In this document: positions 19,645 through 52,573 of the stretch, one piece after another
How positions within the stretch are numbered: the first letter of the stretch is position 1
How the letters are laid out: every line of letters starts with the position of its first letter
NCBI GenBank assembly: GCA_030157865.1
Contig: JAOATY010000038.1
Coordinates: forward strand, 52,393 to 116,392
Direction of reading: 5' to 3'
DNA length: 64,000 nucleotides
DNA from: Candidatus Nanopelagicales bacterium
Lineage (GTDB): Bacteria > Actinomycetota > Actinomycetes > S36-B12 > UBA5976
The notes under the pieces: model-generated
Told to the model about the DNA's origin: nothing
The model's input: the letters and a program-made list of their open reading frames with translations, nothing else
The model's database searches: none
Translations under genes and position numbers: made by a program

Positions 19645-19646
19645 GA

Positions 19647-21506: not shown

Positions 21507-21516
21507 TTCAGTTCCT

Positions 21517-22541: not shown

Positions 22542-23089
22542 TTATCGTCACCTACTTTTACTGTCGTAGGTGTTGGGCTGCTGCCAACTTTGCCTTCGTA
22601 ATAATCGATTGCAGTTGTGCCCGGTGCCATATCGTGTGGCGGAAGTTCCATCCCTGACAAAAGCGGAGCAAGTAAATCTTCTTTTGTGAAGATTAGTTTC
22701 TCACGACTATCGTCAGCTAATTCATATTCGTTTGTCATGGTTAGTGCACGTGTTGGACACGCTTCGATGCAAAGTCCGCAAAGAATGCAACGCAAGTAAT
22801 TGATTTGGTAAGTGCGACCGTAACGCTCACCTGGTGAAAAACGTTCTTCTTCAGTGTTGTCCGCACCTTCAACATAAATTGCATCTGCTGGACAAGCCCA
22901 AGCACATAGTTCACAACCGATGCACTTTTCTAGGCCATCTGGATGCCGATTAAGTTGATGGCGACCATGGAAGCGTGGCTTTGGTGGATACTTGTCGCGC
23001 TCTTCTGGGTACTGCTCAGTTGTTACCTTCTTGAACATCGACAAGAAAGTAACGCCGAATCCACGGATGACTTGTGGAACTTTAGACAT
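22538..23089 (-). CDS. nuoI: NADH-quinone oxidoreductase subunit I
   Basis: [12 protein letters not shown] and [12 protein letters not shown] motifs. Confidence 0.95.
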
Positions 23090-26642: not shown

Positions 26643-27940
26643 CGAGTTGCTCCTGCAAATACTGTGGCGGCTACTGGATCAAAGCTTTCATTCGCTGGCG
26701 CATTTGTTGCCTGCACGAATTCATCGCGGAAGTACTTAAGTGCGGCTGGGAATGGAGTCGCAGCTGCATCACCAAGTGCACAGAAGGAACGACCGGCAAT
26801 CTGTGAACAGATATCGATCAACTTATCTAGATCTGCTTCAGTGCCATGACCATCTTCGAAACGATGAAGCACGTCACTTAACCACCAAGTGCCTTCACGA
26901 CATGGCGTGCATTTGCCACAAGATTCGTGCTTGTAGAAAGCCAACCAGCCAGTGACGGCGCGAACCACAGAAGTAGTTTCATCAAAAATCATTGGGGTAC
27001 CAGTTCCAAGCATGGAACCAGCTGCTGCAATGTCTTCGTAGGTAAGTGGCGTATCAAGTAAGTCTGGAGTCAACATTGGAACGGAAGATCCACCTGGTAG
27101 CCAGAACTTAACTTTGTGTCCATCGCGAACTCCCCCAGCATGCTCAAGAAGTTCGCGCATTGTGATGCCAAGCGGAGCTTCATAAATACCTGGGCGATTT
27201 ACGTGACCTGAAACGGCGAACAACTTAAAGCCTGGAGACTTTTCAGTTCCGAATGACTTGAACCAATCAACACCGTTGTTAACGATGTAAGGAATGTTTG
27301 CAATTGTTTCAACGTTGTTGACACAAGATGGTGAGGCATAAAGACCAGCGACCGCTGGGAACGGTGGCTTTAGTCTTGGCTGGCCGCGACGACCTTCCAA
27401 TGAATCAAGCAATGCAGTTTCTTCACCACAAATGTATGCACCGGCACCCGCGTGCAAAACAACTTCAAGATCAAATCCTGATCCCATGATGTTCTTGCCA
27501 AGGTAACCAGCTGCGTACGCTTCGCGAATTGCACTATTAACTCGACGGAAAACGTGTGGGACTTCACCACGTAGATAGATGAAGGCATGGTTAGCGCGCA
27601 TTGCATAAGCCGCAATAATTACGCCTTCAATAAGTGCGTGAGGGTTCGCCATCATTAATGGGATGTCTTTGCAGGCACCTGGTTCTGATTCATCAGCGTT
27701 GATCACTAAGTAATGTGGCTTGTCGTCACCCTGCGGAACAAAGCTCCACTTCAGGCCTGTTGGGAAACCTGCGCCACCGCGACCGCGAAGACCTGAGTCC
27801 TTCACAAGCGAAATGATTTCGTCTGGCCCGGTTGCAAAAGCCTTCTTGAATGCGGTGTAACCACCGTTGCGCATATAGCCAGCGATTTTGTAGGAATCTG
27901 CTTCATCCCAATGTGCGCTAAGTACTGGAGTTAATGTCAT
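26639..27940 (-). CDS. nuoF: NADH-quinone oxidoreductase subunit F
   Basis: GRGGAGFPTGLKW (FMN/NADH site) and ESCGKCTPCREG (cluster N3). Confidence 0.96.
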   Translation of the reverse strand: MTLTPVLSAHWDEADSYKIAGYMRNGGYTAFKKAFATGPDEIISLVKDSGLRGRGGAGFPTGLKWSFVPQGDDKPHYLVINADESEPGACKDIPLMMANPHALIEGVIIAAYAMRANHAFIYLRGEVPHVFRRVNSAIREAYAAGYLGKNIMGSGFDLEVVLHAGAGAYICGEETALLDSLEGRRGQPRLKPPFPAVAGLYASPSCVNNVETIANIPYIVNNGVDWFKSFGTEKSPGFKLFAVSGHVNRPGIYEAPLGITMRELLEHAGGVRDGHKVKFWLPGGSSVPMLTPDLLDTPLTYEDIAAAGSMLGTGTPMIFDETTSVVRAVTGWLAFYKHESCGKCTPCREGTWWLSDVLHRFEDGHGTEADLDKLIDICSQIAGRSFCALGDAAATPFPAALKYFRDEFVQATNAPANESFDPVAATVFAGATR

Positions 27941-28584
27941 TTCTTTACTCCTGGTGCACTTTGGCCAAGTTCCTTGGCGCGCTTCAAGCCAGCAAGCATT
28001 TGCTCATCAGCCTGAACACCTTCATCTACTAGACCGTCGTCAAAACCAGCTAGCGTTAATTCGTTTTCCTTGAAGGTGCGAATTCTTGGACCGCGAGTAC
28101 TCATAACTTCTTTTCCACTGACGAGCTTTTCAACAACGTCAATTGCAGATTCTGGAGTCATGTTGTCTAGGAATTCCCAGTTCGCTGTCATTACTGGTGC
28201 GTGTGTACAAGCAGCTTGGCATTCAATGCGCTCAAGAGAAATTTTTCCGTCTGGAGTTACTTCGTCATGACCAATGCCAAGGCGAGAACTTAACTTCTCC
28301 CAAATCGCGTCGCCACCAAGAATTCCACAACCAGGGTTAATGCAAACACCTACGTGGTATTCGCCAGCTGGCTTGCGGTGATACATCGTGTAAAAAGTTG
28401 CAACTGCTGCTACTTCAGCAGTTGTCAATGAAAGTTCTTCGGCACACAATGCAATGCCATCAGCACTTACGTAACCTTCTTCTGCCTGCACCAAGTGCAG
28501 CATCGGAAGCAGAGCTGAACGAGCCTGCGGGTAACGCGAAATGATTTCGCGCGCCTGCACTCGAGTTGATTCAGAAAGTGACAT
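27937..28584 (-). CDS. nuoE: NADH-quinone oxidoreductase subunit E
   Basis: Thioredoxin-like 2Fe-2S subunit with GVCINPGC and ECQAACTHAP. Confidence 0.94.
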   Translation of the reverse strand: MSLSESTRVQAREIISRYPQARSALLPMLHLVQAEEGYVSADGIALCAEELSLTTAEVAAVATFYTMYHRKPAGEYHVGVCINPGCGILGGDAIWEKLSSRLGIGHDEVTPDGKISLERIECQAACTHAPVMTANWEFLDNMTPESAIDVVEKLVSGKEVMSTRGPRIRTFKENELTLAGFDDGLVDEGVQADEQMLAGLKRAKELGQSAPGVKK

Positions 28585-29903
28585 TAACGATCAACGCCTC
28601 CCATAACTGGATCAATCGAAGCAACTGCTGCGATCACGTCTGCAATCTGTCCACCTTCACACATTGCGGCAACTGCCTGAAGATTTGTAAATGATGGATC
28701 GCGGTAGTGAACTCGGTAAGGACGAGTTCCACCGTCAGAAACAATGTGAACACCAAGTTCGCCACGTGGTGATTCAACTGCGCTGTAAACCTGACCGGCT
28801 GGAACCTGGAAACCTTCAGTTACTAACTTAAAGTGGTGAATCAAAGCTTCCATTGATTCGCCCATGATGTGACGAATGTGATCAAGCGAGTTGCCCTGAC
28901 CGTCAGAACCGATTGATAGCTGTGATGGCCATGCAATCTTCTTGTCTTCAACCATGACTGCACCAGGCTGCAAACGATCTAGACATTGTTCAACAATGTT
29001 TAGTGACTGTTCCATCTCCGTTAGACGGATCAGGAAACGACCGTATGCATCGGAAGTGGTCTGGGTCATGACATCGAATTCATAGTTTTCGTAACCGCTG
29101 TATGGCGCTGTCTTACGAAGATCTTCAGGCAGACCGGTTGCACGAAGAACAGGACCAGTAACACCAAGTGCCATACAACCTGCAAGATCAAGCTTTCCAA
29201 TACCTTGAGTTCTGGCTAACCAAATCGAGTTATCGACAAGCATGTCTGCAGTGTCTTTCATGCGACGAGGTAGCGCCATGATTGTGTCTCGAATTTGCTT
29301 TTCAGCACCTGCTGGCAAATCTTGTGCCACACCACCAGGTCGGATGTAAGCACTGTTCATGCGCAGACCAGTTACAAGTTCAAACAAGTCAAGAACTGAT
29401 TCACGCTCACGGAATCCAAAGATCATTGCGGTAAGCGCGCCAAGTTCCATACCGCCAGTTGCAAGTGCAACAAGGTGGGAGGAAACGCGGTTAAGTTCCA
29501 TCATCATTACGCGAATGATTTGCGCACGTTCTGGAATTTGGTCAGTTATGCCAAGAAGTTTTTCAACACCTAAGCAGTAAGCAGTTTCGTTAAAGAATGG
29601 TGACAAGTAATCCATACGAGTAACAAAAGTTACGCCCTGAGTCCAAGTGCGGTATTCAAGATTCTTTTCGATACCGGTATGTAGGTAACCAATTCCGCAA
29701 CGAGCTTCGGTTACAGATTCGCCTTCAAGTTCCAGGATCAAACGCAATACGCCGTGAGTTGATGGGTGCTGAGGACCCATGTTTACGACAATGCGTTCGT
29801 ACTCGCCTTCGGCAGCACCAAGAACTGAATCCCAATCTTGGCCCATAACAGTGTGGACGCGACCTTCAGTCGTTTCATATGTTGGTGAGTAAGTATCTGA
29901 CAT
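28584..29903 (-). CDS. nuoD: NADH-quinone oxidoreductase subunit D
   Basis: 439 aa with [14 protein letters not shown] and a C-terminal ...[10 protein letters not shown]. Confidence 0.96.
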
Positions 29904-30598
29904 TAGCTGTATGACCTCCGAGTATCGGGAGGTGGAATTGTTGCGCCCTTGTATTCAACGGGAACACCACCAAGTGGATAGTCCTTGCGCTGCGGATGAC
30001 CTTGCCAATCATCCGGCATCATGATGCGGATCAAATGTGGATGACCATCAAAAATAATTCCGAAGAAGTCATATGCTTCACGCTCATGCCAGTCGTTTGT
30101 TGGATAGACCGACATGATCGAAGGAATGTGTGGGTTGGAATCTGGAACTGAAACTTCAAGTCGGATTCGACGATTGTGAGTTAGCGAACGGAAATGATAA
30201 ACCGCGTGTAATTCACGATCTTTATGTTCTGGATAGTGAACGCCACTAACACCAAGGCAAAGTTCAAAACGTAGACCTGGTTCGTCGCGAAGTGTCTTTG
30301 CTACTGAAACTAGTTCACTTGGGCGCACATAAAGCGTTAATTCATCGCGATCAACTACAACTTTTTCAATTGCCTTTTCCCAAGACGAATCAAAATCTGG
30401 AAGCGCTGCAGTTAATTCATCAGCAAGCACATCAAAGTAGTTTCCGTATGGACGCTCGGCTGGGGCTGGAACTGGAACCACAGTTGTTAGTCCGCCAAAT
30501 CCGGAAGTGTCACCGGATCCTGATGCACCAAACATTCCTTGGCTCGCACTTGTAACTTCAAGCAACGGTTGCCCGTTGTGTACTACTTCATTACTCAT
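29903..30598 (-). CDS. nuoC: NADH-quinone oxidoreductase subunit C
   Basis: 231 aa with [19 protein letters not shown]. Confidence 0.95.
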
Positions 30599-31149
30599 CG
30601 CAACAAACCTCGTTGCGCAGTTACTGGTGTTGCAAGTAGCGCTTCTTTTTCAAGTTCAACAATTTCGCGTTTACGGTTTGAACCAAGTTTGGTGTCGCCA
30701 ATTTGCTCATGAAGCTTCAGCAATGCATCGATTAGCATTTCTGGGCGCGGTGGGCAGCCTGGCAAATAAATGTCTACTGGTACAACGTGATCAACGCCCT
30801 GCACAATTGCATAGTTGTTGAACATGCCACCGGAAGATGCACAAGCACCCATTGCAAGAACCCACTTTGGTTCTGGCATTTGATCATAAATTTGGCGAAG
30901 TACTGGAGCCATCTTTTGGCTAACGCGACCTGCAACGATCATTAGATCTGCTTGACGTGGTGATGCACGGAAAACTTCCATGCCGAATCGAGCTAAGTCA
31001 TAACGTCCTGCACCGGATGCCATCATTTCGATTGCGCAGCAAGCAAGACCGAATGTTGCTGGCCAAAGAGAGTTCTTGCGTGCGTAACCTGCTAAGCCTT
31101 CAACCGTGGTTAAGAGCACACCACTTGGCAACTTCTCTTCTAGTCCCAT
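30595..31149 (-). CDS. nuoB: NADH-quinone oxidoreductase subunit B
   Basis: [21 protein letters not shown] and LPGCPPRPE. Confidence 0.96.
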
Positions 31150-31174
31150 TTTTTCCTCTAACTTCTAAAAATTC

Positions 31175-31543
31175 TTAATCCCACTCAAGTCCACCGCGAC
31201 GCCAAACAAATGCGTACGCAACTAGAACTGTGAGAATGAAAATGATCATTTCAATCAATCCGAATAGCCCAAGAGCATCAAATGAAACTGCCCATGGATA
31301 TAGAAAAACAATTTCGATGTCGAAAATAATGAAGAGCATCGCGGTGATGTAGTACTTCACTGGGAAGCGACCGCCGCCAAGCTGAGCTTGTGCTGGCTGG
31401 ATTCCACATTCGTAAGCATCAACCTTGGCTCGGTTGTATCTTTTTGGTCCGGTGAACGAAGCGGCAGCGACCGAGAAAACTGCAAAACCGAATGCCAATA
31501 GACCTAGGAAGAAAATGGGTAGGTATACATTTCCCTGTCCCAC
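31175..31543 (-). CDS. nuoA: NADH-quinone oxidoreductase subunit A (GTG start)
   Basis: 122 aa with 3 TM segments, DAYECG, and an AAAGGTGG RBS upstream. Confidence 0.93.
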   Translation of the reverse strand: MGQGNVYLPIFFLGLLAFGFAVFSVAAASFTGPKRYNRAKVDAYECGIQPAQAQLGGGRFPVKYYITAMLFIIFDIEIVFLYPWAVSFDALGLFGLIEMIIFILTVLVAYAFVWRRGGLEWD

Positions 31544-31617: not shown

Positions 31618-31636
31618 TTGTGAAAAGATTCACTAA
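31618..31636 (-). promoter_or_regulatory. Rex operator (ROP-like) upstream of nuoA
   Basis: TTGTGAAAAGATTCACTAA compared with the recalled consensus TTGTGAA-N4-TTCACAA gives one half-site mismatch. It lies 75 nt upstream of the nuoA start, and rex is encoded in this window. Confidence 0.55.
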
Positions 31637-32450: not shown

Positions 32451-33854
32451 TTAGCTTGGATTAGGCAACTTCAACAAAACGGATTTCCACAGCGCTAAGA
32501 CGTTTGGAATCGCAGTGATCACCCGTTCGTGATCTTTAGTTAGGACTGCGTCGCGCAAAATCACACTTGCCGTTGTTGGCGACAGCGCAATGTCTCCAGC
32601 GAAAAGAGCTTTCCAAACTTGATCCTCATCGCTACGAATCTGTTCCAAGTCGCCCATATCTTTCCGAAGCGATGATGCTTGTTTGGTTAATCTGTCGCGA
32701 TAATTCTTAGACGAGGTAATCACACCACCAAGTAATGCCCCACCGTTAAAGAAAATGAACGGAATAGCGGCATACGCCAGAGCAGCACCATATGAACCAG
32801 AGTTGTCGCCTGCGAAAAATCCAAGGATTAATAGCCAAAAGAAAAGATAAGCGAGTACTAATAGCTCATATGTCATTACTCGAAACAAAACTGGTTTCGC
32901 TCCAAGTCGTGGAACTAGATTTCTTTCATAGATCCGGAAAATCAAAAAACTAATCGCACTTAAAGTTGCACCCCAAAAGAAAGCATGGATCGCATCCATG
33001 AAGTAACTAAGCCAACTGCTAAATCCAAAGAAAGCGAAAATCGAAATTAATGCCGGCATAGCATTGTTTGGATTTGTGCTTGCTGCGATTACGTCAGCAA
33101 ATGAATACTTAGCTTGCGAATGCACTTTTGACATTCTTGATGCACTTGGAGTTCGGTTAGAAATCTTGTTAACACGTATTTCCACCTCATCGAGGGTTTC
33201 CTGCAGTTGAACAATCTGTCCCGTTACTTTTTGCACCGGAATATTAGTTGCGATGAGATTTTCTAGTGTGCCGCGTGTTGCTTGAATCTCGAGCGAAACT
33301 TCACGAATGGCAAAGGTCCTGGCATCTCTAATTGTTGAGATCAAATCCGCTTGCTGTTTGGTGAGACTTACAAGCAAATCTTTTCCAAGACTTACTTGTT
33401 TAAAGTTTCCCCCCAAAACCAAAGTCGTCCAACCGAATCCCAAGTAGATAAAAGTTGTGAAAGCCAAACTTATTGCTCGTTGAAAAAGGGACTGCGTGAT
33501 TGGCTCAAAGTTCCAGCTTCGAAGGATTGCTTCAAACAGGATTGTTCCAAAAACATTAAGGACAAGGATCAAGCCAACAACAATCCAAGAACGCATTTTT
33601 CCAAGTGGTGCTCGCCACAATGCCTTTCCCAAAATTGACAGCAAGACCACTACCAAGATTTGAGAAATTGCAATTGCCCCGAGGCTATAAATGAAAAACT
33701 CACTTTCGTCCGCGGCATAAACCGTGAGTTTTCCTAACGAAAAAACTAAGGAAGCAAGACTTAAAGACAACAAGTTAAAGGTGTCGGGACCGGCGAGATT
33801 CCGTAGTAAATCTCGGAATGTCGAACTGGTATTCGCGGAAGTTAACTCGGTCAC
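32451..33854 (-). CDS. Hypothetical polytopic membrane protein with central and C-terminal coiled-coil-like segments (467 aa)
   Basis: Long uninterrupted ORF with ~5 N-terminal TM helices, a ~90-aa heptad-like hydrophilic segment ([15 protein letters not shown]...[16 protein letters not shown]), ~6 more TM helices and a ~100-aa soluble tail. I recognise no catalytic motif. The GTG start is uncertain. Confidence 0.6.
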
Positions 33855-35184: not shown

Positions 35185-36387
35185 CTAGTTATTAGTTGCT
35201 GGAATTGTTTCCCAACCGCGTAAAACAAATGTTGGTCGCTGGACCGGAGTTCCAGCTAAACGCAGATTTGGAAATCTCTCAAACATCATCGGTAACGAAT
35301 TCTGCATTTCAAGACGAGCTAACGGAGCACCGATGCAGAAATGAATTCCAGCACCAAATGCAATATGTGGATTGTGCTTTCTAGTTATGTCGAAGCGATC
35401 AGTATCTTCAAAAACTTCTTCGTCTCGATTTGCCGAACCAAGCATTGCCACAACCTTTTGTCCTTCGAGAACCGTTGTGTTACCAATGACAGTTTCGCTT
35501 GTAGCAGTCCGCTCAAACATGTGAAGCGGTGAATCAAACCGCATCATTTCTTCAAGTGCTGTTTCAGTGAGCTCTCTTGGCGAACTCTTCATTAAATCCA
35601 ATTGATCTTGGTGGCGAAACATTGCAACCATTCCATTACCAAAACCATTAACAGACGCTTCATGGCCAGCATTTAAGAGCAGAACGCACATTGCGATCAA
35701 TTCATGTTCGTTGAGTTTTTCACCCTGCTCTTCAACTTCTACTAAAGCGGTAATCAAATCAGACCTAGGATCAACTTTGCGCTTGGCTGCCAAATCTGCA
35801 ATGTAAGTACTAAATTCCAGCCCAGCTTTTTGAGCAGCAAGTTCTTGTTCGCGCGATCTTCCGTATTCATACATCTTTACGATGTCCTGAGACCATCGGC
35901 GCAAGTCATTAGCCATATCTCGCGGCACGCCTAACAGGTCTGCAATAACTAAGATAGGCAATGGCTCAGCGTAGTCCGCCAAAATATCGAAGCTTCCGGA
36001 ACTTGCCAGCTTTGCTTCGGCTTCATCAAGTAACTGATCACAAATTTCAATGATGTTAGGTTCTAGCGCTGCAATGCGTCCAGGTGTGAATGCTTTTTGA
36101 ACTAACGATCGCAACCTGGTGTGCTTTGGTGGTTCGCTATCTAAAATCGAATCAGAATGTAACCAGTTAAAAATTTCCCATTCATCAAATGGTTCTTGCG
36201 CTTTATATAAACGACCCAAGCTTTTATTTCGAAGTGTGGCATTAGCTGTTTCATGAGTTGGAGCCAGCCAAAGCCCTAAGCGGTCACTCCAAACTAAATC
36301 TCGATCAGCTCGAAGTTGCCGATAGATGTCATAAGGGTTTGCAACTGTTGCCGGGTCGCGAGTATCTAAAATGTCAGCTGAGCTCAT
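35185..36387 (-). CDS. Cytochrome P450
   Basis: 400 aa with heme loop FGAGIHFCIGAPLARLE, ExxR (EEMMR) and I-helix LLLNAGHEAS. Confidence 0.93.
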   Translation of the reverse strand: MSSADILDTRDPATVANPYDIYRQLRADRDLVWSDRLGLWLAPTHETANATLRNKSLGRLYKAQEPFDEWEIFNWLHSDSILDSEPPKHTRLRSLVQKAFTPGRIAALEPNIIEICDQLLDEAEAKLASSGSFDILADYAEPLPILVIADLLGVPRDMANDLRRWSQDIVKMYEYGRSREQELAAQKAGLEFSTYIADLAAKRKVDPRSDLITALVEVEEQGEKLNEHELIAMCVLLLNAGHEASVNGFGNGMVAMFRHQDQLDLMKSSPRELTETALEEMMRFDSPLHMFERTATSETVIGNTTVLEGQKVVAMLGSANRDEEVFEDTDRFDITRKHNPHIAFGAGIHFCIGAPLARLEMQNSLPMMFERFPNLRLAGTPVQRPTFVLRGWETIPATNN

Positions 36388-36800
36388 GCGCTAGTTGGTT
36401 GATCTTCTTTGTAGCCGATCGATTTGATCGGGAGGGTGATTAGGTACAGAGCTGCAAAGCCGGAACCGATGCCAACAAAAACCCAACGTCCCGTCGTAGC
36501 AGTTCCTGGTGCTAGGTAAGTAAGAATTGCTAAACCGATCGAAACTAAAATCATCACAACTGCAGCTCTACGAAATGCTGGATCGCCAGCATTGCGTGAA
36601 GTTGTCGCCATGTGAGTTGAAAGTGCAACCAGAATCATGCCGGTCAATCGAAACGACCATATCGCTGACTCGTTAGATGTCAGGCCAATGTAGGAAACAA
36701 ATGCTGATGGATCCACAAGCAATACACCTGCGCTAATTGCGAAAACAATTGATCCAATGATCATCACTAGGCGGGAGTAACGATATCTAGAATTGCGCAT
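36384..36800 (-). CDS. Hypothetical small membrane protein (4 TM), overlapping the P450 start by 4 nt
   Basis: 138 aa with four hydrophobic helices, translationally coupled to the P450 gene. I recognise no family. Confidence 0.6.
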   Translation of the reverse strand: MRNSRYRYSRLVMIIGSIVFAISAGVLLVDPSAFVSYIGLTSNESAIWSFRLTGMILVALSTHMATTSRNAGDPAFRRAAVVMILVSIGLAILTYLAPGTATTGRWVFVGIGSGFAALYLITLPIKSIGYKEDQPTSA

Positions 36801-45352: not shown

Positions 45353-46357
45353 TTAGAGGCCTGAGTATGAATGCAGGCCTTGTACCCAAATGTTCACAAC
45401 AAAGTAGTTGAACAAAATCGTGGCGTATCCCGCAATTGCCACATACGCGGCTTTTTTGCCACGCCAACCTGCAGTTGCTCGAGCGTGCAAGTAAGCCGCG
45501 TAGATAACCCAAGTGATGAAAGCCCAAGTCTCTTTTGGATCCCAGCCCCAATAACGACCCCAAGCAGCTTCCGCCCAAATTGCGCCAGCGATAACTGCGA
45601 AGGTCCAGATTGGAAACATGAAAGCGTGAATTCGGTAGGACATTAAGTCCAGGCGGTCTGCTGACGGAATGCGCTGCGCAATCGCGGCGCTGCGACCTGG
45701 TTCCTTGCCTGCCGCAACTCGATCTTCGGCAGATTGCGCCACAAGATACAAACCAGAAAGTGCAGCACCAATTGTGAAGGCACCAAAGCACACAACTGCA
45801 GCCGATACGTGAATCGCTAACCAATAAGAGTTAAGCGCTGGAACTAGTTGTGAACTTTCGGCGTATAGAACAGTTAGGGCAAGACCCAGATCAAGCAGCA
45901 CAGGGACAGTGATAAACACACCGAGCCAACGCAAGTCGCGCGAGATCGACATCAAACAGTAAGTCAGCGACACTGCAAAACCAGCTGCGAGAGAGAACTC
46001 ATACATATTTCCCATTGGGACTCGGCCAGCCGAAAGACCGCGAAACAGAATTGCCATGCCAAGCAATAGCGTTCCAAGCCAGGTTAGAGACATACCGATA
46101 TTTCCAGCGCGGCGACCTTCGCCTAAGTCACCGTCATCGGATAACGAAGTAGAAACTGAAGGCTTATCTAAGGTTGCCGTTGATCCCATTCGGACTTGAT
46201 GCGAAGCGCTTGTGCGTTGGGCTGAAGTTTCGATGGTTTCAAGTCTGCGACCTTTAGCTAACGAAATGCTGAATGCAACCATGGCTCCTGTGAAGGCAGT
46301 CATTGATCCATAAACCATGGTGTTACTTGCTTGCGCCAATGTTTCATTAACAGTCAT
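45353..46357 (-). CDS. ccsA: Cytochrome c biogenesis protein CcsA (system II heme handling)
   Basis: W-rich heme motif WGRYWGWDPKETWAFITW, polytopic. Confidence 0.92.
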   Translation of the reverse strand: MTVNETLAQASNTMVYGSMTAFTGAMVAFSISLAKGRRLETIETSAQRTSASHQVRMGSTATLDKPSVSTSLSDDGDLGEGRRAGNIGMSLTWLGTLLLGMAILFRGLSAGRVPMGNMYEFSLAAGFAVSLTYCLMSISRDLRWLGVFITVPVLLDLGLALTVLYAESSQLVPALNSYWLAIHVSAAVVCFGAFTIGAALSGLYLVAQSAEDRVAAGKEPGRSAAIAQRIPSADRLDLMSYRIHAFMFPIWTFAVIAGAIWAEAAWGRYWGWDPKETWAFITWVIYAAYLHARATAGWRGKKAAYVAIAGYATILFNYFVVNIWVQGLHSYSGL

Positions 46358-47838
46358 TACTTTTCCTCCGGAGCATTTACCAGTTTGGCAAGCTGTGAAA
46401 TCTCATCTGCCAAACCAGGAGCTTCAGTTTTTGATAAACCAGCAACTTCAATCACATTACCCCGATCATCAGTTGCCGTCACGCGCAACCAGGCTCGGCG
46501 ACGTGGGATCAAAAGTGAAAGTGACAAACCGATAATCGATGCAATTGCCGCACCAAGGGCCCAGCCCTTGCCAGGATCTTTGGTGATGACGAAGGTAGCC
46601 CATTGGCGATAACCCGTAAATTCAACGGTTCCAGCCGAATTTGGAAGTGTCCAAGTTTCACCTGGCGCAAGTTCCTCAATTCCAATTCGCTTCATGTTTT
46701 CGGTTTCGAGGCGATAGACACTTTGTGGCATTCCAGAATCGAGACCTAAATCACCCTGCCAGGCACTCAGGTAAACCTCAGGATCATCGGGAGCTGGAAA
46801 CTTTGAAACTGGTCCATTTGAGAAATCCTCAGACACAGTTGGCAAGAAAAAGCCTTGGAGTCCCAGCTGGGGAACCGTGTCAGGAATCTTAACCACACCA
46901 CTTGAAGTGAATGCCGTGTCTTGTGGCAAGAACACTGAGGCGTCTTCCCAAACTACTTTTCCAGATGCGTCACGCACCGTGAACTCAGGCGCGTAACCAT
47001 GTCCAACCAGGTACACCGTGATTCCAGAGGTTCGAAGTGGGTAATTCACTTCTACTGTGACTGGTCTTGGCTCTGATTGTGGGTCATCTTTAACTAATAG
47101 GTCTGCGCGGAAACCTCGCGGCGCACCATTTTGCTGTCCCCCGCGCTGAAATGTCGCTTCAAATTCTTGAAGTTCAAATGAGAACGGTGGCAATTGGTCT
47201 GCCCCAAAAATTCGACCGGGTGCAAACGTGTCGTACTGCGTCACGTTGTTTGCAAATCCTGCATCTTCGCGAACAATTACAGTTCCGCGATATCCAACTG
47301 CGCCGCCGTATCCGACGGCTAATAATAAAACTAATAGCGATAGGTGAAAAAGAAGATTTCCAGTTTCTCGCGCATAACCTTTTTCTGCCGAAAGCCAGCC
47401 ATCACCTTGGCGGACTCGCCAACCGCGTTTCTTCCAAGCGACAGCAGTTTCAGAAATAATTTGTGACGAATCAGAATTACTTTGCCATTGCTGATGAACT
47501 GGAAGTCGACGTAAGTTTCTTGGAGCAACTGGTGGTTCACTGCGCAATTCTTTGTAATGATCTAGGGCGCGTGGCAATACGCACCCGGTTAGCGATATAA
47601 ACAACAATAGATAAATCGAGGCAAACCAAGGTGAAGCAAACACATCGAACATATACAGGCGATCCAAAATTGGACCGGTAGTTGGATTGTCTTTTAAGAA
47701 CTCATTAACCCGAAGTGGTGAAGTTCCTCGTTGCGGAAAAATTGAACCAGGAATACTTGCTAACGCGAGCAAAAACAGCAAGATCAAAGCAACGCGCATA
47801 CTGGTTAGCTGTCGCCATAACCACCGCATAGTTGCCAT
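46357..47838 (-). CDS. resB: Cytochrome c biogenesis protein ResB/CcsB
   Basis: 493 aa with N-terminal LTSMRVALILLFLLALASIPGSIFPQR and a large extracytoplasmic loop. It is adjacent to ccsA and ccdA. Confidence 0.9.
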   Translation of the reverse strand: MATMRWLWRQLTSMRVALILLFLLALASIPGSIFPQRGTSPLRVNEFLKDNPTTGPILDRLYMFDVFASPWFASIYLLLFISLTGCVLPRALDHYKELRSEPPVAPRNLRRLPVHQQWQSNSDSSQIISETAVAWKKRGWRVRQGDGWLSAEKGYARETGNLLFHLSLLVLLLAVGYGGAVGYRGTVIVREDAGFANNVTQYDTFAPGRIFGADQLPPFSFELQEFEATFQRGGQQNGAPRGFRADLLVKDDPQSEPRPVTVEVNYPLRTSGITVYLVGHGYAPEFTVRDASGKVVWEDASVFLPQDTAFTSSGVVKIPDTVPQLGLQGFFLPTVSEDFSNGPVSKFPAPDDPEVYLSAWQGDLGLDSGMPQSVYRLETENMKRIGIEELAPGETWTLPNSAGTVEFTGYRQWATFVITKDPGKGWALGAAIASIIGLSLSLLIPRRRAWLRVTATDDRGNVIEVAGLSKTEAPGLADEISQLAKLVNAPEEK

Positions 47839-47861: not shown

Positions 47862-48623
47862 TTAGATTGGAACGCCCCAATCAGCTGCCCAAACTCGCAA
47901 CCCAATTGTTAAGTCATTCCAGTATCCAGTTACAAGTAGTAACCCGATCACAATAAGCATGACGCCACCGAAATACATAATTCCCCGAGAATGCCTTCGC
48001 AAAACTTTCACTGTGCGAATACTTCGCTCGAAGAACAAAGCAATGAATACAAACGGAAGTCCGAGTCCAAGGCAATAGGCAGAACTCAAAATTGCGCCAC
48101 GAACAGCGCTTGCTTCGGAAAGTGCCATCCCTTGAACCGCAGCCAATGTCGGCCCAATGCAAGGTGTCCAACCGATTGCAAACAGTGCGCCAAGTAAGAA
48201 GGCGCCAAACAAAGTTCCAGTTGGGACTCGATGGATTCTGATGTCTCGCTGAATCGCCGGGATGGCACCTAGGAAACCTAGACCAAGGATGACAACAACT
48301 ACACCCATGATCATTTGAATGGTTCGCTGATACTCAAGGAGTAGTTGTCCAATGCCGCCAAATAGTGCGCCATAGGAAATGAACACGACCGAAAATCCAG
48401 AAACGAAAACTAGCGATCCCCAAACAGCTCGAGATCTGGATACTGAAGTCCGTTGTGCAGTGGCTCTGGCGCCAGCCACGCCTGTTATGTAGGAGAGGTA
48501 CCCAGGGACTAGCGGAAGCACGCATGGCGAAAGAAACGAAACTAATCCAGCAGCAAACGCCAATGGGATTGCAAGAAGTAGTGAACCTGATGTGATCGTT
48601 TGGACGATTTCAATCGCAGGCAT
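47862..48623 (-). CDS. ccdA: Cytochrome c-type biogenesis thiol:disulfide transporter CcdA
   Basis: 253 aa with LSPCVLPLVPGYL and GWTPCIGPTL. Confidence 0.92.
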   Translation of the reverse strand: MPAIEIVQTITSGSLLLAIPLAFAAGLVSFLSPCVLPLVPGYLSYITGVAGARATAQRTSVSRSRAVWGSLVFVSGFSVVFISYGALFGGIGQLLLEYQRTIQMIMGVVVVILGLGFLGAIPAIQRDIRIHRVPTGTLFGAFLLGALFAIGWTPCIGPTLAAVQGMALSEASAVRGAILSSAYCLGLGLPFVFIALFFERSIRTVKVLRRHSRGIMYFGGVMLIVIGLLLVTGYWNDLTIGLRVWAADWGVPI

Positions 48624-49192
48624 TAACTTTCACTTTCCAAAACTGCGGTAAGTACAACTCGCAACTCAGATTCAGTTGTCGGACCAAGGATTCGAGCCGC
48701 TACTCGCCCTTGTGAATCCAAAATAATTGTTGACGGTGTCGCAGCCGGGCCTAGATTTCCAAAAACTAAAGTCAACTGCCCGTCTTCATCGCGAATTGAT
48801 GGATATGAGGACTTGAATCTTTCGTTAAATGCTTTTGCAGCAGCAAGGCCATCACGAGTATTCAAACCAAGAAACTCAACGCCTTGATTCTTAAACTGCT
48901 GATATGAATTCTCTAATTCATCTGCTTCAGCTCGGCAAGGGCCACACCAGGATGCCCAGAGGTTTACGACAACTGGCTTACCTCGCCAATCAGCAATGTC
49001 GAGTTTTGAACCATCGAGAGTTTCACCGGCTAAGGAGATTGCATCGCCACGCTCTTCTGGAGACAAGAGCACCGTTGAGCCATCGCCAGAGATGTAGCCG
49101 GTATCTGAAGTGTTCGATCCAGTACTTGCGCTACATCCCGTGAGAAGTGCTATGCACGCTCCTGCCAAAATCCAAGCCGCAACTTTACGCAC
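48623..49192 (-). CDS. TlpA/ResA-like thioredoxin-fold lipoprotein
   Basis: WASWCGPCRAE active site and lipobox LLTGCS. The start is uncertain: GTG at 49192 is proposed, while the track ORF extends to 49252 and would overlap the upstream gene by 68 nt. Confidence 0.85.
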   Translation of the reverse strand: MRKVAAWILAGACIALLTGCSASTGSNTSDTGYISGDGSTVLLSPEERGDAISLAGETLDGSKLDIADWRGKPVVVNLWASWCGPCRAEADELENSYQQFKNQGVEFLGLNTRDGLAAAKAFNERFKSSYPSIRDEDGQLTLVFGNLGPAATPSTIILDSQGRVAARILGPTTESELRVVLTAVLESES

Positions 49193-49820
49193 CGGCGATC
49201 TTGCTCGCTTTCCCCAAAAGGTCAGCGCTCGGTTCGGTATACAAAACTGCAACTAACTTGTCATCATCGAAAGTCAATGAAGTTAGCGAAGCCAGGCTGC
49301 ATTGGCGCTTGCGCGGATCGTGCGGAAATCTGCGATCTTCGAAATCAAGTCGGCTAATCCAAATTGGAAGTTGGTGGCTGACTAGGACTGCTTCGTGACC
49401 CCGTGCTGCATCGCGAGCATCGGCTACCGCTTGACGCATTCGCGCAGCAACTACAACATAAGGCTCGCCCCATGATGGGCGAATCGGATTGTAGAGATGT
49501 TTCCAGGCTCGTGGCTGTCGCAGAACTCCATCGCCAACAGAAACTCGCTCGCCTTCGAATACGTTGTCGGCTTCGATCAAGTTTTCATCTGTACCGATGG
49601 TCAAGCCATGTACGCCGGCAATCGGCGCCGCGGTTTGCTGAGCTCGCTCTAGTGGCGATGCGATAACTGCAGTTACATCACGAGGTGCGAGAGCATCAGC
49701 AGCGCGCTGGGCCATTTCGTGACCTAGTTCAGAAAGTCGATATCCAGGAAGGCGTCCATAAAGGACCTTGTCCGGGTTATGTACTTCACCGTGACGCAGT
49801 AAGTGAACTGTTGTCCGCAT
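49185..49820 (-). CDS. Histidine phosphatase (phosphoglycerate mutase-like) family protein
   Basis: MRTTVHLLRHGEVHNP (RHG motif). The start at ATG 49820 avoids overlap with the hemD fusion. The track ORF to 50069 is an artefactual extension. Confidence 0.85.
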   Translation of the reverse strand: MRTTVHLLRHGEVHNPDKVLYGRLPGYRLSELGHEMAQRAADALAPRDVTAVIASPLERAQQTAAPIAGVHGLTIGTDENLIEADNVFEGERVSVGDGVLRQPRAWKHLYNPIRPSWGEPYVVVAARMRQAVADARDAARGHEAVLVSHQLPIWISRLDFEDRRFPHDPRKRQCSLASLTSLTFDDDKLVAVLYTEPSADLLGKASKIAGA

Positions 49821-49833
49821 ACTACTAATTAGA

Positions 49834-51420
49834 TCACGTTGCGCGACGTCGTGCAGCCGAGCGCTTACGAGACGGACGCCAGCCAACGGAGCCTGAAGTT
49901 TCAGCCTCATCGCGAAGTGCACCACCATGGACTGCCAAAGCGTTTGCAAGGGCAGTGATCGTGGCATCCTCAGGAAGTACATCCACGCGCAAACCATGCT
50001 CTTGAGCGGTCTTTGCAGTTGCTGGACCGATGCAAGCGATGATCGTAGTTGGATGAGGCTTTCCAGCAATTCCTACCAAGTTACGAACTGTGCTACTTGA
50101 GGTGAAGATCACAGCATCGAATCCACCACTCTTGATGGCTTCGCGAGTCTCAACTGCAGGAGGCGCAGCGCGAACGGTACGGAATGCTGTGACGTCTTCG
50201 ACTTCCCAGCCAAGAGCAGTTAGACCAGCAACCAAAGTGTCAGTTGCGATGTCAGCACGTGGCAAGAAGATTCGATTAATCGGATCGTTGATTGAATCAA
50301 ACTCCGGCCATTCCTCAAGCAGGCTGGCGGTTGTTTGTTCCTCTTCTGGAACTAGGTCTGGACGCACACCCATTGCGATCAACGCATTAACTGTGTCCTC
50401 GCCAATTGCAGCAATCTTGATTCCCGAAAGTGATCGAGCATCTAATCCATATTCTTCAAAACGCTCGCGAATCGCGCGCACTGCATTCAGGCTTGTGAAG
50501 ATAACCCATTCAAATCTTCCGGAAACAAGTCCGTGAATTGCACGTTCCATTTGTTGTGGTGTGCGAGGTGGCTCAACCGACATCGTTGGAACTTCAAACG
50601 GGACTGCGCCAAATGAAATCATTTGTTCGCGTAGGTCTTCAGTTGAATCCTTAGTACGAGGTACAAGTACGCGCCAGCCATGCAGCGGACGATTCTCAAA
50701 CCAGGCGGTGCGATCACCGACGGTTTCACCGATGATGACTATGCCATTACCACTTTGCTTTGCAAGCTTTACTGCATTCGGTAGTGCCTCAAGTGTTGAG
50801 TGCAAAGAACGCTGCTCAACAGTTGCGCCATCTCGCACGATTGCAACTGGTGTTGAACCGTCGCGACCTGCCTTGATAAGCGCCTTTGAAACTTCAGTTA
50901 CACGATCGGCTGCATTGTGAACCACAAGTGTCACAAGCGGATCAATGTGCGCTGACCAATCAACGATTGGTGAGTCAGCATCGATGATGCGAACTTCACG
51001 AGTACGGCCACCAGTTAGTGAAACACCAACGTGTGCTGCAACTGCAGTTAGCGGAGATACGCCAGCAGCAACTTCGAAGGCATGTCCTGCCTTAGCGATT
51101 GCTGAGGTCTCCATAGCAAGACGACCGTCAAGAACTGGATCACCTGAAAGTAGGCGAACTACCTGCAGGCCTTCCTTGCGCGCATCTAACAAAACTTTTG
51201 TGCGGGCTGCTAATGAAAGCGGCGCACCTACGTTGTCCACGGCAACTAGTACTTGTCCCGATGAAACTATCTCGGCAAGGCGAGTTACTTCCTCGTCAAC
51301 AACTACGACGTCAGCTGCCTGAAGCAACCGATGTGCGCGAACTGTTAGTAAATCTGGGTCGCCAGGTCCGGCAACCACAAAAGACACTCCGACTGCGGCA
51401 GAAATCTGCGAGCTAGCCAT
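49834..51420 (-). CDS. hemD: Bifunctional uroporphyrinogen-III C-methyltransferase-like / uroporphyrinogen-III synthase
   Basis: 528 aa. The N-terminal tetrapyrrole methylase domain (FVVAGPGDPDLLTVRA...) is fused to a C-terminal HemD domain (WRVLVPR...VIFTS...IFTSSSTV...IACIGPATA), like the mycobacterial HemD fusion. Confidence 0.85.
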   Translation of the reverse strand: MASSQISAAVGVSFVVAGPGDPDLLTVRAHRLLQAADVVVVDEEVTRLAEIVSSGQVLVAVDNVGAPLSLAARTKVLLDARKEGLQVVRLLSGDPVLDGRLAMETSAIAKAGHAFEVAAGVSPLTAVAAHVGVSLTGGRTREVRIIDADSPIVDWSAHIDPLVTLVVHNAADRVTEVSKALIKAGRDGSTPVAIVRDGATVEQRSLHSTLEALPNAVKLAKQSGNGIVIIGETVGDRTAWFENRPLHGWRVLVPRTKDSTEDLREQMISFGAVPFEVPTMSVEPPRTPQQMERAIHGLVSGRFEWVIFTSLNAVRAIRERFEEYGLDARSLSGIKIAAIGEDTVNALIAMGVRPDLVPEEEQTTASLLEEWPEFDSINDPINRIFLPRADIATDTLVAGLTALGWEVEDVTAFRTVRAAPPAVETREAIKSGGFDAVIFTSSSTVRNLVGIAGKPHPTTIIACIGPATAKTAQEHGLRVDVLPEDATITALANALAVHGGALRDEAETSGSVGWRPSRKRSAARRRAT

Positions 51421-51467
51421 TTACACACCTACCTTGTTTGTGTACTTACAGCTTTGGGAAGTCATTT

Positions 51468-52181
51468 TTATCCTGCATTCGCTTGAGTCAGCGCGCTTTG
51501 AGATTTGCGCTGTTCGTGGAATGCAAGAATCTGTAGTTCGGTCGCAAGGTCTACGCGACGCACGTCAACACCAGCTGGTACTTCGATAAGTACCGGTGCG
51601 AAATTCAAAATACTTGTGATGCCATTGCGAACCATTACGTCGCAAACTTCTTGAGCCGCAGCTTCTGGTGTAGCTATGACCCCAATTGATGCCCCAGTAC
51701 TAAGAACGACCTGCGGCAATTTAGAAATGTCGGTAACAACAATTTCTTTGCCAGCGACTGTGACGGATTCACCAACGCGTTGCGGGTCGGTATCAAAGAG
51801 GCCAACAACAGAAAAGCCACGCGATGCAAAACCTGGGTAACCAGCAAGGGCATTTCCGAGGTTTCCAATACCAACAATCACAACTGGCCAAACCTGAGTA
51901 AGGCCTAAAGCGCGAGCAATTTGGTAGAGCAAGAATTCGACATCGTAGCCAACGCCACGAGTTCCGTATGAACCCAAGAAGGAAAGATCTTTGCGAAGTT
52001 TTGCACTAGACACACCACTGGCCTCGGCCAACTCTTCGGACGAGACCAGGAGAACTCCACGCGCAGTTAATGACAGGAGGCTGCGGTGATACATCGGAAG
52101 ACGACTAACGGTCGCGTCGGGGATAACACCACGAGCACTTACGTGCGCGCTAGGCGTTTGTGACAGCGACATTAAAACCAT
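51468..52181 (-). CDS. rex: Redox-sensing transcriptional repressor Rex
   Basis: ATVSRLPMYHRSL (winged helix) and the IVGIGNLGNALAGY Rossmann motif. Confidence 0.93.
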   Translation of the reverse strand: MVLMSLSQTPSAHVSARGVIPDATVSRLPMYHRSLLSLTARGVLLVSSEELAEASGVSSAKLRKDLSFLGSYGTRGVGYDVEFLLYQIARALGLTQVWPVVIVGIGNLGNALAGYPGFASRGFSVVGLFDTDPQRVGESVTVAGKEIVVTDISKLPQVVLSTGASIGVIATPEAAAQEVCDVMVRNGITSILNFAPVLIEVPAGVDVRRVDLATELQILAFHEQRKSQSALTQANAG

Positions 52182-52324
52182 CCCTTTTTGTGTCCGTTGG
52201 CGATCAGGTTATGCGCCTTTTCGCTTTGTGCAAAATTGGCGCAGTGACCCTAAATCGTGCTAGGGAAAACAAGGATTTTTGATGTTACAAACGTGACTGG
52301 TGTGACTTGACGGCGACACGAAAT

Positions 52325-52573
52325 TTACTTGGTTTTTTTCGATAATGCGGTTCGCAAGCGTGCTTCATCAACGCGCCACTTGTCGTGGATCTTTCCGTCA
52401 ATCATGGTTACCGGAATTGATTCAAAATACTGATCAGCTAGCTGAGCGTCTTCCAAGATCGAAAGTTCACTCCAAGTTTCACCAAGTTCTTCACATACTT
52501 TGGCGATTATTAACCTGGCGTTTTCGCACAAATGGCAATCTGGTTTTCCAATGAGTACAACACGAGATTCCAT
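52325..52573 (-). CDS. Glutaredoxin-like protein (DUF836-type)
   Basis: MESRVVLIGKPDCHLCENA... is 82 aa. The longer track ORF (to 52741) would overlap the divergent HAD gene. Confidence 0.8.
   Translation of the reverse strand: MESRVVLIGKPDCHLCENARLIIAKVCEELGETWSELSILEDAQLADQYFESIPVTMIDGKIHDKWRVDEARLRTALSKKTK

What the first reader, a model, noticed from the sequence alone, without database searches (positions are those of the whole stretch)
49185..52181. Heme-biosynthesis locus eroded to rex + cobA/hemD while heme-dependent machinery is retained
From memory, streptomycetes carry rex-hemA-hemC-hemD. M. tuberculosis has a nearly contiguous block: grx-like, hemA, hemC, hemD, hemB ... hemL, phosphatase, thioredoxin-like, ccdA, resB, ccsA. 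The same backbone is present here: grx-like at 52325-52573, rex, the methyltransferase/HemD fusion, a histidine phosphatase, TlpA/ResA-like, ccdA, resB and ccsA. However, only 47 nt separate rex from the hemD fusion, and only 13 nt separate hemD from the phosphatase gene. So hemA, hemC, hemB and hemL are missing from their syntenic slots with no pseudogene debris. Heme consumers are nevertheless kept in the same window: system II cytochrome c maturation and a P450 with an intact FGAGIHFCIG loop. This fits heme auxotrophy with uptake of exogenous heme, which I recall being reported for some streamlined freshwater actinobacteria. The retained uroporphyrinogen-III synthase/methyltransferase fusion would then lack a substrate supply, which is itself a puzzle and may point to a second role.
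Basis: partly seen in the sequence, partly recalled or inferred. Interest (0 to 1): 0.6.

Follow-up and report, generated by a model that had tools for sequence, protein, structure and literature searches.

The report
Heme-synthesis locus reduced to orphan hemD
A freshwater actinobacterium has cleanly lost four of the genes that start heme synthesis but keeps, under strong selection, one enzyme gene (a CobA-like/HemD fusion) that now seems to have no substrate; the heme dependence is already known for its relatives, while the kept gene is a small unsolved puzzle.

Summary
On the minus strand the order is Glrx-like, rex, CobA-like/HemD fusion (528 aa), histidine phosphatase, ResA, CcdA, ResB, CcsB. 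The gaps flanking the fusion are 47 and 13 nt. No hemA, hemC, hemB, hemL or late heme gene, and no debris of the first four, lies anywhere in the 64 kb.

Nocardioides and Streptomyces-like genomes carry rex-hemA-hemC-fusion-hemB…hemL-phosphatase. About 20 related loci, at 34-73% GC, carry the same eroded order as the window. These arose in at least three or four separate events, and each event kept the fusion.

The closest genomes are Lake Mendota MAGs named 'Ca. Nanopelagicales bacterium' (99% identity). A supplementary table of Kim et al. 2021 scores non-acI Nanopelagicales genomes as having one common-pathway step and one siroheme step, and little else. acI proper has neither step. Heme auxotrophy is therefore likely and already known for the order, but I could not check this genome as a whole.

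The fusion is not decaying: dN/dS is 0.01-0.11, and the HemD half is the most conserved sequence in the locus. Its CobA-like half lacks canonical methyltransferase motifs in all actinobacteria examined. A role independent of heme synthesis is plausible but untested.

The parts
52325..52573 (-). Glutaredoxin-like protein (DUF836; the Rv0508-type upstream neighbour of the hem block)
   Evidence: Pfam PF05768, E 1.1e-16
51468..52181 (-). rex, redox-sensing repressor
   Evidence: NCBIfam NF003992, 336.5 bits against a cut-off of 226; Pfam Put_DNA-bind_N + CoA_binding
51421..51467 (.). 47-nt rex-fusion spacer, the slot where hemA and hemC lie in heme-complete relatives
   Evidence: Coordinates. L054 has hemA and hemC between rex and the fusion. 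No debris found
50692..51387 (-). N-terminal CobA-like (TP_methylase) half of the fusion, residues 12-243. GxGxGD and the CysG D248 equivalent are kept. The GK, FGRGGEE, PLTHR and YM motifs are absent
   Evidence: Pfam PF00590, 1.9e-29. TIGR01469 126.6 bits against cut-off 185; NF004790 134 against 198. Alignment to CysG. Motif table. dN/dS 0.04-0.11
49936..50685 (-). HemD (uroporphyrinogen-III synthase, HEM4) half of the fusion, residues 246-495. It is the most conserved segment of the locus
   Evidence: Pfam PF02602, 7e-60, covering profile positions 2-230 of 231. End-to-end alignment to Pseudomonas U3S 4es6. dN/dS 0.01-0.07. About 70% identity to Nocardioides/Streptomyces-type proteins
49834..49881 (-). 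Conserved arginine-rich C-terminal tail (WRPSRKRSAARRRAT) plus stop codon
   Evidence: Invariant W514 R515 P516 S517 R520 R525 in A1. A similar tail occurs in heme-complete lineages. Low pLDDT in the model
49821..49833 (.). 13-nt fusion-phosphatase spacer, the slot where hemB ... hemL lie in heme-complete relatives
49185..49820 (-). Histidine phosphatase (Rv0525-type), also highly conserved
   Evidence: Pfam PF00300, 9.7e-36. 67-77% identity to the non-Nocardioides loci tested and 60% to Nocardioides L054
48623..49192 (-). ResA/TlpA-like thiol-disulfide oxidoreductase
   Evidence: Pfam Redoxin/AhpC-TSA; NCBIfam ResA subfamily hit; 189-aa gene call
47862..48623 (-). CcdA (DsbD_TM)
   Evidence: Pfam PF02683
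46357..47838 (-). ResB/CcsB-type system II cytochrome c biogenesis protein
   Evidence: Pfam PF05140, 3.8e-140
45353..46357 (-). CcsB/ResC-type heme-handling cytochrome c synthase subunit
   Evidence: TIGR03144, 264 bits against 187.6. WGRYWGWD motif
35185..36387 (-). Cytochrome P450 with an intact Cys ligand loop, a heme consumer
   Evidence: Pfam PF00067. FGAGIHFCIG at residue 344

Best explanation
The region is the conserved actinobacterial supercluster Glrx-like / rex-hemA-hemC-(CobA-like/HemD)-hemB ... hemL-phosphatase-resA-ccdA-resB-ccsB. From it hemA, hemC, hemB (with the genes that follow it) and hemL have been precisely deleted. The organism is a freshwater member of the non-acI part of the order named Nanopelagicales.

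Shown: the deletion itself, its presence across a large clade, and its independent recurrence. Inferred from a published genome survey of relatives: the cell cannot make uroporphyrinogen III or heme. It must therefore import heme, which it then attaches to c-type cytochromes through the retained system II machinery and loads into P450 and other hemoproteins.

Shown: the CobA-like/HemD fusion is an intact gene under strong purifying selection, not a relic. Inferred: it must therefore provide something that does not depend on de novo hydroxymethylbilane. My best guess, marked as speculation, is a tetrapyrrole-binding or tetrapyrrole-handling role, co-expressed with rex and the cytochrome c maturation genes. 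The canonical methyltransferase chemistry of the N-terminal half is doubtful in all actinobacterial members of this fusion family.
For: Gene content and spacing. Ancestral order confirmed by Pfam in Nocardioides humilatus L054 and seen in about 55 other loci. Eroded order rex-fusion-phosphatase: window, L001-L011, L016, L017, L020, L021, L024, L025, L032, L035, L037; L015 has fusion-phosphatase with no Hem gene, but no Rex match was found. Intermediate L027 has an intact hemC + fusion + phosphatase. In the NJ tree the main eroded groups form one clade, sister to heme-complete relatives; L025, L012 and L027 are separate events. Eroded loci span 34-73% GC. The closest genome records are 'Ca. Nanopelagicales bacterium' MAGs from Lake Mendota at 99% and 98% identity.

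Kim et al. Supplementary Table 1, sheet Fig. 3a: all acI genomes have COMMON 0 and SIRO 0. S36-B12, AcAMD-5, UBA5976 (47.5% GC) and UBA12327 genomes have COMMON 0.33 and mostly SIRO 0.17, CPH 0 and PPH 0-0.25, including a 94%-complete MAG. The same paper demonstrates heme auxotrophy experimentally for acI.

Selection: dN/dS is 0.04-0.11 for the CobA-like half and 0.01-0.07 for the HemD half, against 0.03-0.12 for the flanking genes where dS was measurable. The HemD half has the lowest dN in every comparison except that with L054. No internal stops occur in any eroded-lineage copy. The HemD motifs shown are near-identical in eroded and complete lineages. HemD identity to other orders is 69.5-73.7% in eroded lineages against 77.7% in complete ones. 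Precedent: Porphyromonas and related heme-auxotrophic Bacteroidota lack HemA/L/B/C yet all keep a HemD homologue (PMC13096392).
Against: Absence of hemA/L/B/C and of the late genes is therefore shown only for 64 kb, plus published scores for related genomes. The link from the Kim et al. scores (0.33 / 0.17) to this particular fusion is my inference, because the KO list was in a figure that is not held. I could not assign the window to a GTDB family. acI proper has lost the fusion and still lives as a heme auxotroph, so whatever the fusion does is dispensable in at least one lineage. No direct evidence supports any specific second function. The structural model was poor (pLDDT 65).
Confidence: 0.7

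Rival explanations
1. The early heme genes were relocated rather than lost. hemA, hemL, hemB and hemC (and the late genes) sit elsewhere in the chromosome, the organism makes its own heme, and the fusion works as an ordinary uroporphyrinogen-III synthase.
For: Only 64 kb of the genome was seen. Gene order does vary among relatives: hemL lies 8-10 kb from the fusion in L034, L045 and L086. L027 still has hemC next to the fusion. Strong purifying selection on HemD is what an active pathway would produce.
Against: Published whole-genome scoring of 11 non-acI Nanopelagicales genomes, up to 94% complete, finds only one of the three common steps and none of the coproporphyrin-dependent lower module; the protoporphyrin-dependent lower module scores 0-0.25. 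The same clean deletion occurs in about 20 loci and several independent lineages. None of the 80 best HemB-encoding JGI metagenome contigs has the roughly 48% GC of this lineage, although the lineage is abundant in JGI lake metagenomes.
Confidence: 0.1
2. The fusion is a non-functional leftover that has simply not been deleted yet.
For: acI proper has lost it completely (none among the top 80 loci). HemD identity to outgroups is slightly lower in eroded lineages than in heme-complete relatives, 69.5-73.7% against 77.7%.
Against: dN/dS is 0.01-0.11, equal to or lower than that of the flanking genes. ORFs are intact in all 18 eroded or intermediate loci. The gene is retained across a clade whose members differ by 40-50% in protein sequence and by 34-73% in GC, and in at least three further independent erosion events.
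Confidence: 0.04
3. The fusion still acts as an enzyme on a salvaged or alternatively produced tetrapyrrole precursor. It would feed a small demand for a product other than heme, for example precorrin-2 or siroheme, or use exogenous porphobilinogen in lineages like L027 that keep hemC.
For: Both domains are under selection. The intermediate L027 keeps hemC + fusion, which suggests stepwise loss from the top of the pathway. The GxGxGD SAM-binding loop and the D248 equivalent are kept.
Against: From general biochemistry, hydroxymethylbilane is too unstable to be scavenged. No hemC is in the window. The remaining siroheme steps are absent in related genomes, which score SIRO 0.17, i.e. one step of six. 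The CobA-like half lacks the GK, FGRGGEE, PLTHR and YM motifs of characterised SUMTs and scores below NCBIfam cut-offs.
Confidence: 0.12

Closest known systems
Heme auxotrophy of the acI lineage (Nanopelagicaceae); Kim et al., bioRxiv 10.1101/2021.01.11.426183, PNAS 2021
   Same: Same order, same habitat, same loss of the early and late heme genes while respiratory cytochromes are kept. The paper's supplementary table already lists non-acI Nanopelagicales genomes with very low pathway completeness.
   Different: acI has lost hemD/cobA as well (COMMON 0, SIRO 0). The window lineage and its clade keep the fusion. The paper's text describes the non-acI genomes only as 'more complete' and does not discuss the single retained gene.
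Actinobacterial rex-hemACD(B) operon and the M. tuberculosis Rv0508-Rv0529 block (hemA Rv0509, hemC Rv0510, hemD Rv0511, hemB Rv0512, hemL Rv0524, then phosphatase, thioredoxin-like, ccdA, resB, ccsA)
   Same: Same backbone and the same CobA-like/HemD fusion protein, including its arginine-rich tail.
   Different: hemA, hemC, hemB and hemL are missing here, with 47-nt and 13-nt scars.
Orphan HemD in heme-auxotrophic Bacteroidota (Porphyromonas gingivalis keeps only HemD, HemN, HemG, HemH); PMC13096392
   Same: A heme auxotroph without HemA/L/B/C that nevertheless conserves a HemD homologue of unknown purpose.
   Different: Different phylum. There HemD is a stand-alone protein and some late enzymes (HemG, HemH) are kept. 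Here HemD is fused to a CobA-like domain, and related genomes show no genuine late enzymes.
Bifunctional uroporphyrinogen-III methyltransferase/synthase (KEGG K13542; NCBIfam NF005524 type)
   Same: Same two-domain architecture, TP_methylase + HEM4.
   Different: Scores 93.6 bits against a cut-off of 603 for NF005524, and below the cut-offs of all SUMT models. Canonical SUMT motifs are absent.

Membership tests
Uroporphyrinogen-III synthase (HemD, Pfam HEM4 PF02602) | Full-length match to the HEM4 profile above the gathering score | tested here: met
   202.5 bits against 27.5, profile positions 2-230 of 231. End-to-end alignment to solved U3S 4es6
Uroporphyrinogen-III synthase (HemD, Pfam HEM4 PF02602) | Match to an NCBIfam HemD equivalog above its curated cut-off | tested here: not met
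   Best is NF004593 at 114.5 bits against a cut-off of 275. These equivalogs are lineage-specific, so this is weak evidence against
Uroporphyrinogen-III synthase (HemD, Pfam HEM4 PF02602) | Cyclises hydroxymethylbilane supplied by HemC in the same cell | tested here: inconclusive
   No hemC in the 64-kb window, and related genomes score one of three common steps. The whole genome and enzyme activity are not testable here
Uroporphyrinogen-III C-methyltransferase (SUMT: CobA / CysG-A / NirE, TIGR01469) | TP_methylase (class III methyltransferase) domain | tested here: met
   PF00590, 103.6 bits. Best sequence and fold matches are CysG, NirE, CobA and CbiF (the model is of low confidence)
Uroporphyrinogen-III C-methyltransferase (SUMT: CobA / CysG-A / NirE, TIGR01469) | Score above the curated family cut-off | tested here: not met
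   TIGR01469 126.6 against 185; NF004790 134.2 against 198; NF007922 132.8 against 400
Uroporphyrinogen-III C-methyltransferase (SUMT: CobA / CysG-A / NirE, TIGR01469) | Catalytic and substrate-binding motifs: GK (CysG K270), FGRGGEE (NirE R111/E114), PLTHR (NirE R149), YM (residue roles recalled from memory) | tested here: not met
   The window has VDNVGAP, LDGRLAMET, SLTGGRTR and VHNA at the aligned positions. These motifs are non-canonical in heme-complete actinobacteria too. GxGxGD and the D248 equivalent are kept
Heme-auxotrophic aquatic bacteria (sensu Kim et al. 2021) | Absence of hemA/hemL/hemB/hemC and of the lower pathway from the genome | tested here: inconclusive
   Absent from the syntenic slots and from all 64 kb. 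Related genomes score near zero. The complete genome of this organism was not searchable
Heme-auxotrophic aquatic bacteria (sensu Kim et al. 2021) | Growth requires exogenous heme | not testable with these tools
   Needs a culture experiment
System II cytochrome c maturation (ResA-CcdA-ResB-CcsB) | All four components present and intact | tested here: met
   Pfam and NCBIfam hits. CcsB WWD-type motif. dN/dS 0.03-0.12
Rex regulon operon (rex-hemACD type) | Rex equivalog immediately upstream, on the same strand | tested here: met
   NF003992, 336.5 bits against 226; 47-nt gap
Rex regulon operon (rex-hemACD type) | Rex operator (TTGTGAA-N4-TTCACAA) upstream of rex | tested here: not met
   No match with up to 2 mismatches in 52182-52324. 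The only 1-mismatch site in the window lies upstream of nuoA, and the total count is no higher than in shuffles

The most novel reading that the evidence does not exclude
The actinobacterial CobA-like/HemD fusion has a selectable function that does not depend on de novo tetrapyrrole synthesis. One candidate is binding or handing over heme or porphyrin for cytochrome maturation; another is a redox-linked role alongside Rex. This would explain why the fusion is kept each time the rest of the pathway is lost, and why HemD is also the one early enzyme kept by heme-auxotrophic Bacteroidota.
Probability: 0.35. Interest if true: 0.7.

Novelty: new member of a known kind. Interest (0 to 1): 0.42.

Why it matters
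Heme auxotrophy in abundant freshwater actinobacteria is already established, so the locus mainly adds another lineage and a clear gene-level picture of how the pathway was removed. The useful new angle is the orphan gene. A CobA-like/HemD fusion has survived at least three or four independent losses of its substrate supply, at dN/dS of 0.01-0.11, across relatives from 34 to 73% GC. Bacteroidota show a parallel. This gives a concrete, testable handle on whether HemD-type proteins have a second function. It also warns that KEGG-style completeness scores of 0.2-0.33 in such genomes reflect a single, probably repurposed, gene.

Tried and rejected
1. Whole-genome check. The single genome-contig scan went on the fusion, to obtain relatives and organism names, so hemA/B/C/L could not be searched for in the source genome.
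2. A metagenome scan with a HemB alignment returned only contigs of at least 58% GC.
3. A Rex operator search gave 3 sites against 5.2 expected by chance and none upstream of rex. It is not usable as evidence that the fusion belongs to the Rex regulon.
4. The AlphaFold2 model from a 12-sequence alignment was poor (mean pLDDT 65, pTM 0.32). Foldseek only re-found SUMT/CbiF for the N-terminal half at rmsd of about 9 Å. I drew no residue-level conclusions from it.
5. A literature search for Rv0511 confirmed the gene numbering. It gave no functional data, and the hit in the nucleoid-protein paper is a non-significant BLAST line.
6. Cluster-member names did not link the window to a named GTDB genome such as UBA5976, so family assignment remains open.
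7. The PNAS version, PMC8617464, is not held, and the KO list of Kim et al. is in a figure. The reading 'COMMON 0.33 + SIRO 0.17 = this fusion' is therefore my inference.


Full report
**Observation**

On the minus strand of the window the genes run in this order:
- Glrx-like, 52325-52573
- rex, 51468-52181
- a 528-aa TP_methylase + HEM4 fusion, 49834-51420
- a branch-1 histidine phosphatase, 49185-49820
- a ResA/TlpA-like redoxin, 48623-49192
- CcdA, 47862-48623
- ResB, 46357-47838
- CcsB, 45353-46357

These assignments rest on ORF lists and Pfam/NCBIfam scans. Independent gene calls on identical metagenome contigs give the same boundaries.

I scanned every other called ORF of the window with Pfam, except the nuo operon (16553-31543) and three short ORFs. 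They encode groES/EL, murB, NDH-2, menaquinone synthesis, a P450, proC, Ppx, radA, disA and a Fur-family regulator. None is a heme-synthesis gene.

tblastn with HemA, HemC, HemB and HemL from a Nocardioides locus found nothing in the window at E<1e-8. With very relaxed settings it found only noise, best E 0.026. So there is no pseudogene debris. The P450 carries FGAGIHFCIG, and CcsB carries its tryptophan-rich motif.

**What the ancestral locus looks like**

A scan of one genome per species with an alignment of the fusion returned 80 loci. In Nocardioides humilatus (L054), Pfam confirms the order rex, hemA, hemC, fusion, hemB, an unknown gene, hemL, phosphatase. tblastn shows the same order in about 55 further loci, including Streptomyces-like genera such as Yinghuangia, Embleya and Streptodolium. 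The backbone is therefore real, and the fusion itself is ancestral to these actinobacteria.

**Who has the eroded form**

The order rex-fusion-phosphatase, with none of the four genes, is found in:
- the window and six identical freshwater metagenome contigs (L001-L006);
- Lake Mendota and Czech freshwater MAGs at 78-99% identity (L007-L011, L020);
- more distant loci L016, L017, L021, L024, L025, L032, L035 and L037;
- L015, where fusion and phosphatase are adjacent and no Hem gene was found, but no Rex match either.

L027 keeps an intact hemC next to the fusion but has no hemA, hemB or hemL. It looks like an intermediate state. L012 has the fusion directly followed by the phosphatase.

In a neighbour-joining tree of the fusion protein, the three main eroded groups form one clade, sister to heme-complete relatives. 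L025, L012 and L027 fall elsewhere. That implies at least three or four separate erosion events, each of which kept the fusion. This is a quick NJ gene tree, not a species tree, so the count is provisional.

The eroded loci range from 34% to 73% GC, and one lies on a 2.08-Mb contig. The erosion is therefore not confined to small, low-GC, streamlined genomes.

**Identity of the organism and the whole-genome question**

The nearest genome records are MAGs named 'Candidatus Nanopelagicales bacterium'. NCBI has a separate placeholder name for the family Nanopelagicaceae. No Planktophila or Nanopelagicus record appeared among the 80 best loci. Both points suggest a non-acI member of the order.

I could not search the rest of this genome. 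The best available substitute is Supplementary Table 1 of Kim et al. (bioRxiv 10.1101/2021.01.11.426183), which scores heme-pathway modules genome by genome:
- All acI (Nanopelagicaceae) genomes, including complete isolate genomes, score 0 for the common module (hemB, hemC, hemD) and 0 for the siroheme module.
- Genomes of the other families score COMMON 0.33 and mostly SIRO 0.17, with CPH 0, PPH 0-0.25 and the C5 upper module 0 or 0.5. These are S36-B12 (UBA4592, IN43, RS404, UBA10649, Baikal-G3), AcAMD-5, UBA5976 (47.5% GC, close to the window's 48%) and UBA12327. They include a 94%-complete MAG.

One step of three plus one step of six is what a lone hemD/cobA fusion would give. That reading is my inference, because the KO list sits in a figure I could not read. 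The paper's text says only that these genomes are 'more complete' than acI. The same paper shows experimentally that acI strains need hemin.

As a refutation attempt, I scanned JGI metagenomes with a HemB alignment. The 80 best contigs all have at least 58% GC and none is near 48%, even though this lineage is common in JGI lake samples.

**Is the retained fusion a relic?**

It is not. Comparing the window with four relatives of the eroded clade gives:

| Segment | dN/dS |
|---|---|
| CobA-like half of the fusion | 0.04-0.11 |
| HemD half of the fusion | 0.01-0.07 |
| Rex | 0.06-0.11 |
| CcsB | 0.03-0.09 |

The HemD half has the lowest dN in every comparison except that with Nocardioides L054, where Rex ties it. 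All 18 eroded or intermediate copies are free of internal stops.

The conserved HemD blocks (SVEPPRTPQQMERA, FLPRADIATDTLVAGL, GWEVEDVTAYRTVRAAP, FTSSSTVRNLVGIAGKPH) are near-identical in eroded and heme-complete lineages. Identity of the HemD half to proteins from other orders is 69.5-73.7% in eroded lineages against 77.7% in complete close relatives. That is a slight relaxation at most. From general knowledge, HemD is usually one of the least conserved enzymes of the pathway. Here it aligns to solved Pseudomonas U3S only at E about 1e-4. The tight conservation within actinobacteria is therefore notable in its own right.

**The 'CobA' half**

It is a TP_methylase domain whose best sequence and fold matches are CysG, NirE, CobA and CbiF. 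It falls below every NCBIfam SUMT cut-off, for example TIGR01469 at 126.6 against 185.

Aligned to CysG, it keeps the GxGxGD loop and the D248 equivalent. It has the following in place of the canonical motifs:

| Canonical SUMT motif | Window sequence |
|---|---|
| VGKRAGYH | VDNVGAP |
| FGRGGEE | DGRLAME |
| PLTHRD | SLTGGRTR |
| FYMG | VHNA |

The catalytic roles of these motifs (CysG K270; NirE R111, E114, R149) I recall from memory. Heme-complete actinobacteria are also non-canonical at these positions, though with different residues. Doubt about methyltransferase activity therefore applies to the whole fusion family and is not a consequence of the erosion. A conserved arginine-rich C-terminal tail (WRPSRKRSAARRRAT) is likewise shared by both groups.

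**Most likely explanation**

The locus is the standard actinobacterial hem/ccs supercluster after precise deletion of hemA, hemC, hemB and hemL. The organism is very probably a heme auxotroph that imports heme. It uses that heme through its retained system II cytochrome c maturation genes, its P450 and its respiratory enzymes.

It is not proven for this genome.

The fusion is kept for a reason that does not require de novo hydroxymethylbilane. I cannot say what that reason is. A tetrapyrrole-binding or handling role is my leading guess, because both folds bind tetrapyrroles and the gene sits between rex and the cytochrome c maturation genes in every lineage. The loss of the fusion in acI shows that the role is dispensable in some settings.

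A published parallel exists. Heme-auxotrophic Porphyromonas and related Bacteroidota lack HemA/L/B/C, yet all keep a HemD homologue whose function is unexplained (PMC13096392).

**Verdict**

- The locus is a new member of a known kind.
- The persistent orphan fusion is a modest, well-defined open question.
- Interest: 0.42.

Noticed in passing
window 31619-31634 (+): TGTGAAAAGATTCACT is a one-mismatch match to the Rex operator consensus. It lies in the spacer just upstream of nuoA (31175-31543, minus strand). The position is plausible for Rex control of complex I, but the window-wide count of such sites is not above chance.
   Followed up: partly
window 13320-14541 (-): Three short genes sit about 2 kb beyond nuoN, apart from the full 14-gene nuo operon (16553-31543). 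They resemble NuoI/ferredoxin (134 aa), NuoC (149 aa) and NuoB (127 aa). They could be a truncated second set or the remnant of a small NiFe-hydrogenase-like module.
   Followed up: no
window 32451-33854 (-): A 467-aa ORF with no Pfam hit (E<=0.001), wedged between the ubiE/menG methyltransferase and menF inside the menaquinone gene neighbourhood.
   Followed up: no
window 49185-49820 (-) and relatives: The Rv0525-type histidine phosphatase next to the fusion is nearly as conserved as the HemD half, at 67-77% identity to the non-Nocardioides relatives tested and 60% to Nocardioides L054. CcdA, ResB and CcsB are only 44-61% identical at the same distances. It stays adjacent to the fusion in every eroded locus, and its substrate is unknown.
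   Followed up: partly
L027 8253-10810: A high-GC 'Ca. Nanopelagicales' MAG keeps an intact hemC directly upstream of the fusion but has no rex, hemA, hemB or hemL in the locus. A divergently oriented response regulator lies upstream. It appears to be an intermediate stage of pathway loss.
   Followed up: partly
L025 (whole locus, 19.6 kb): An eroded locus at only 34% GC on a long branch of the fusion tree. This is an unusually AT-rich actinomycete MAG that also keeps the fusion.
   Followed up: no
window 35185-36800 (-): A P450 and a 138-aa ORF with no Pfam hit lie between menF and a PD-(D/E)XK nuclease gene. A P450 is an unexpected heme consumer to find beside a deleted heme-synthesis locus.
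   Followed up: no
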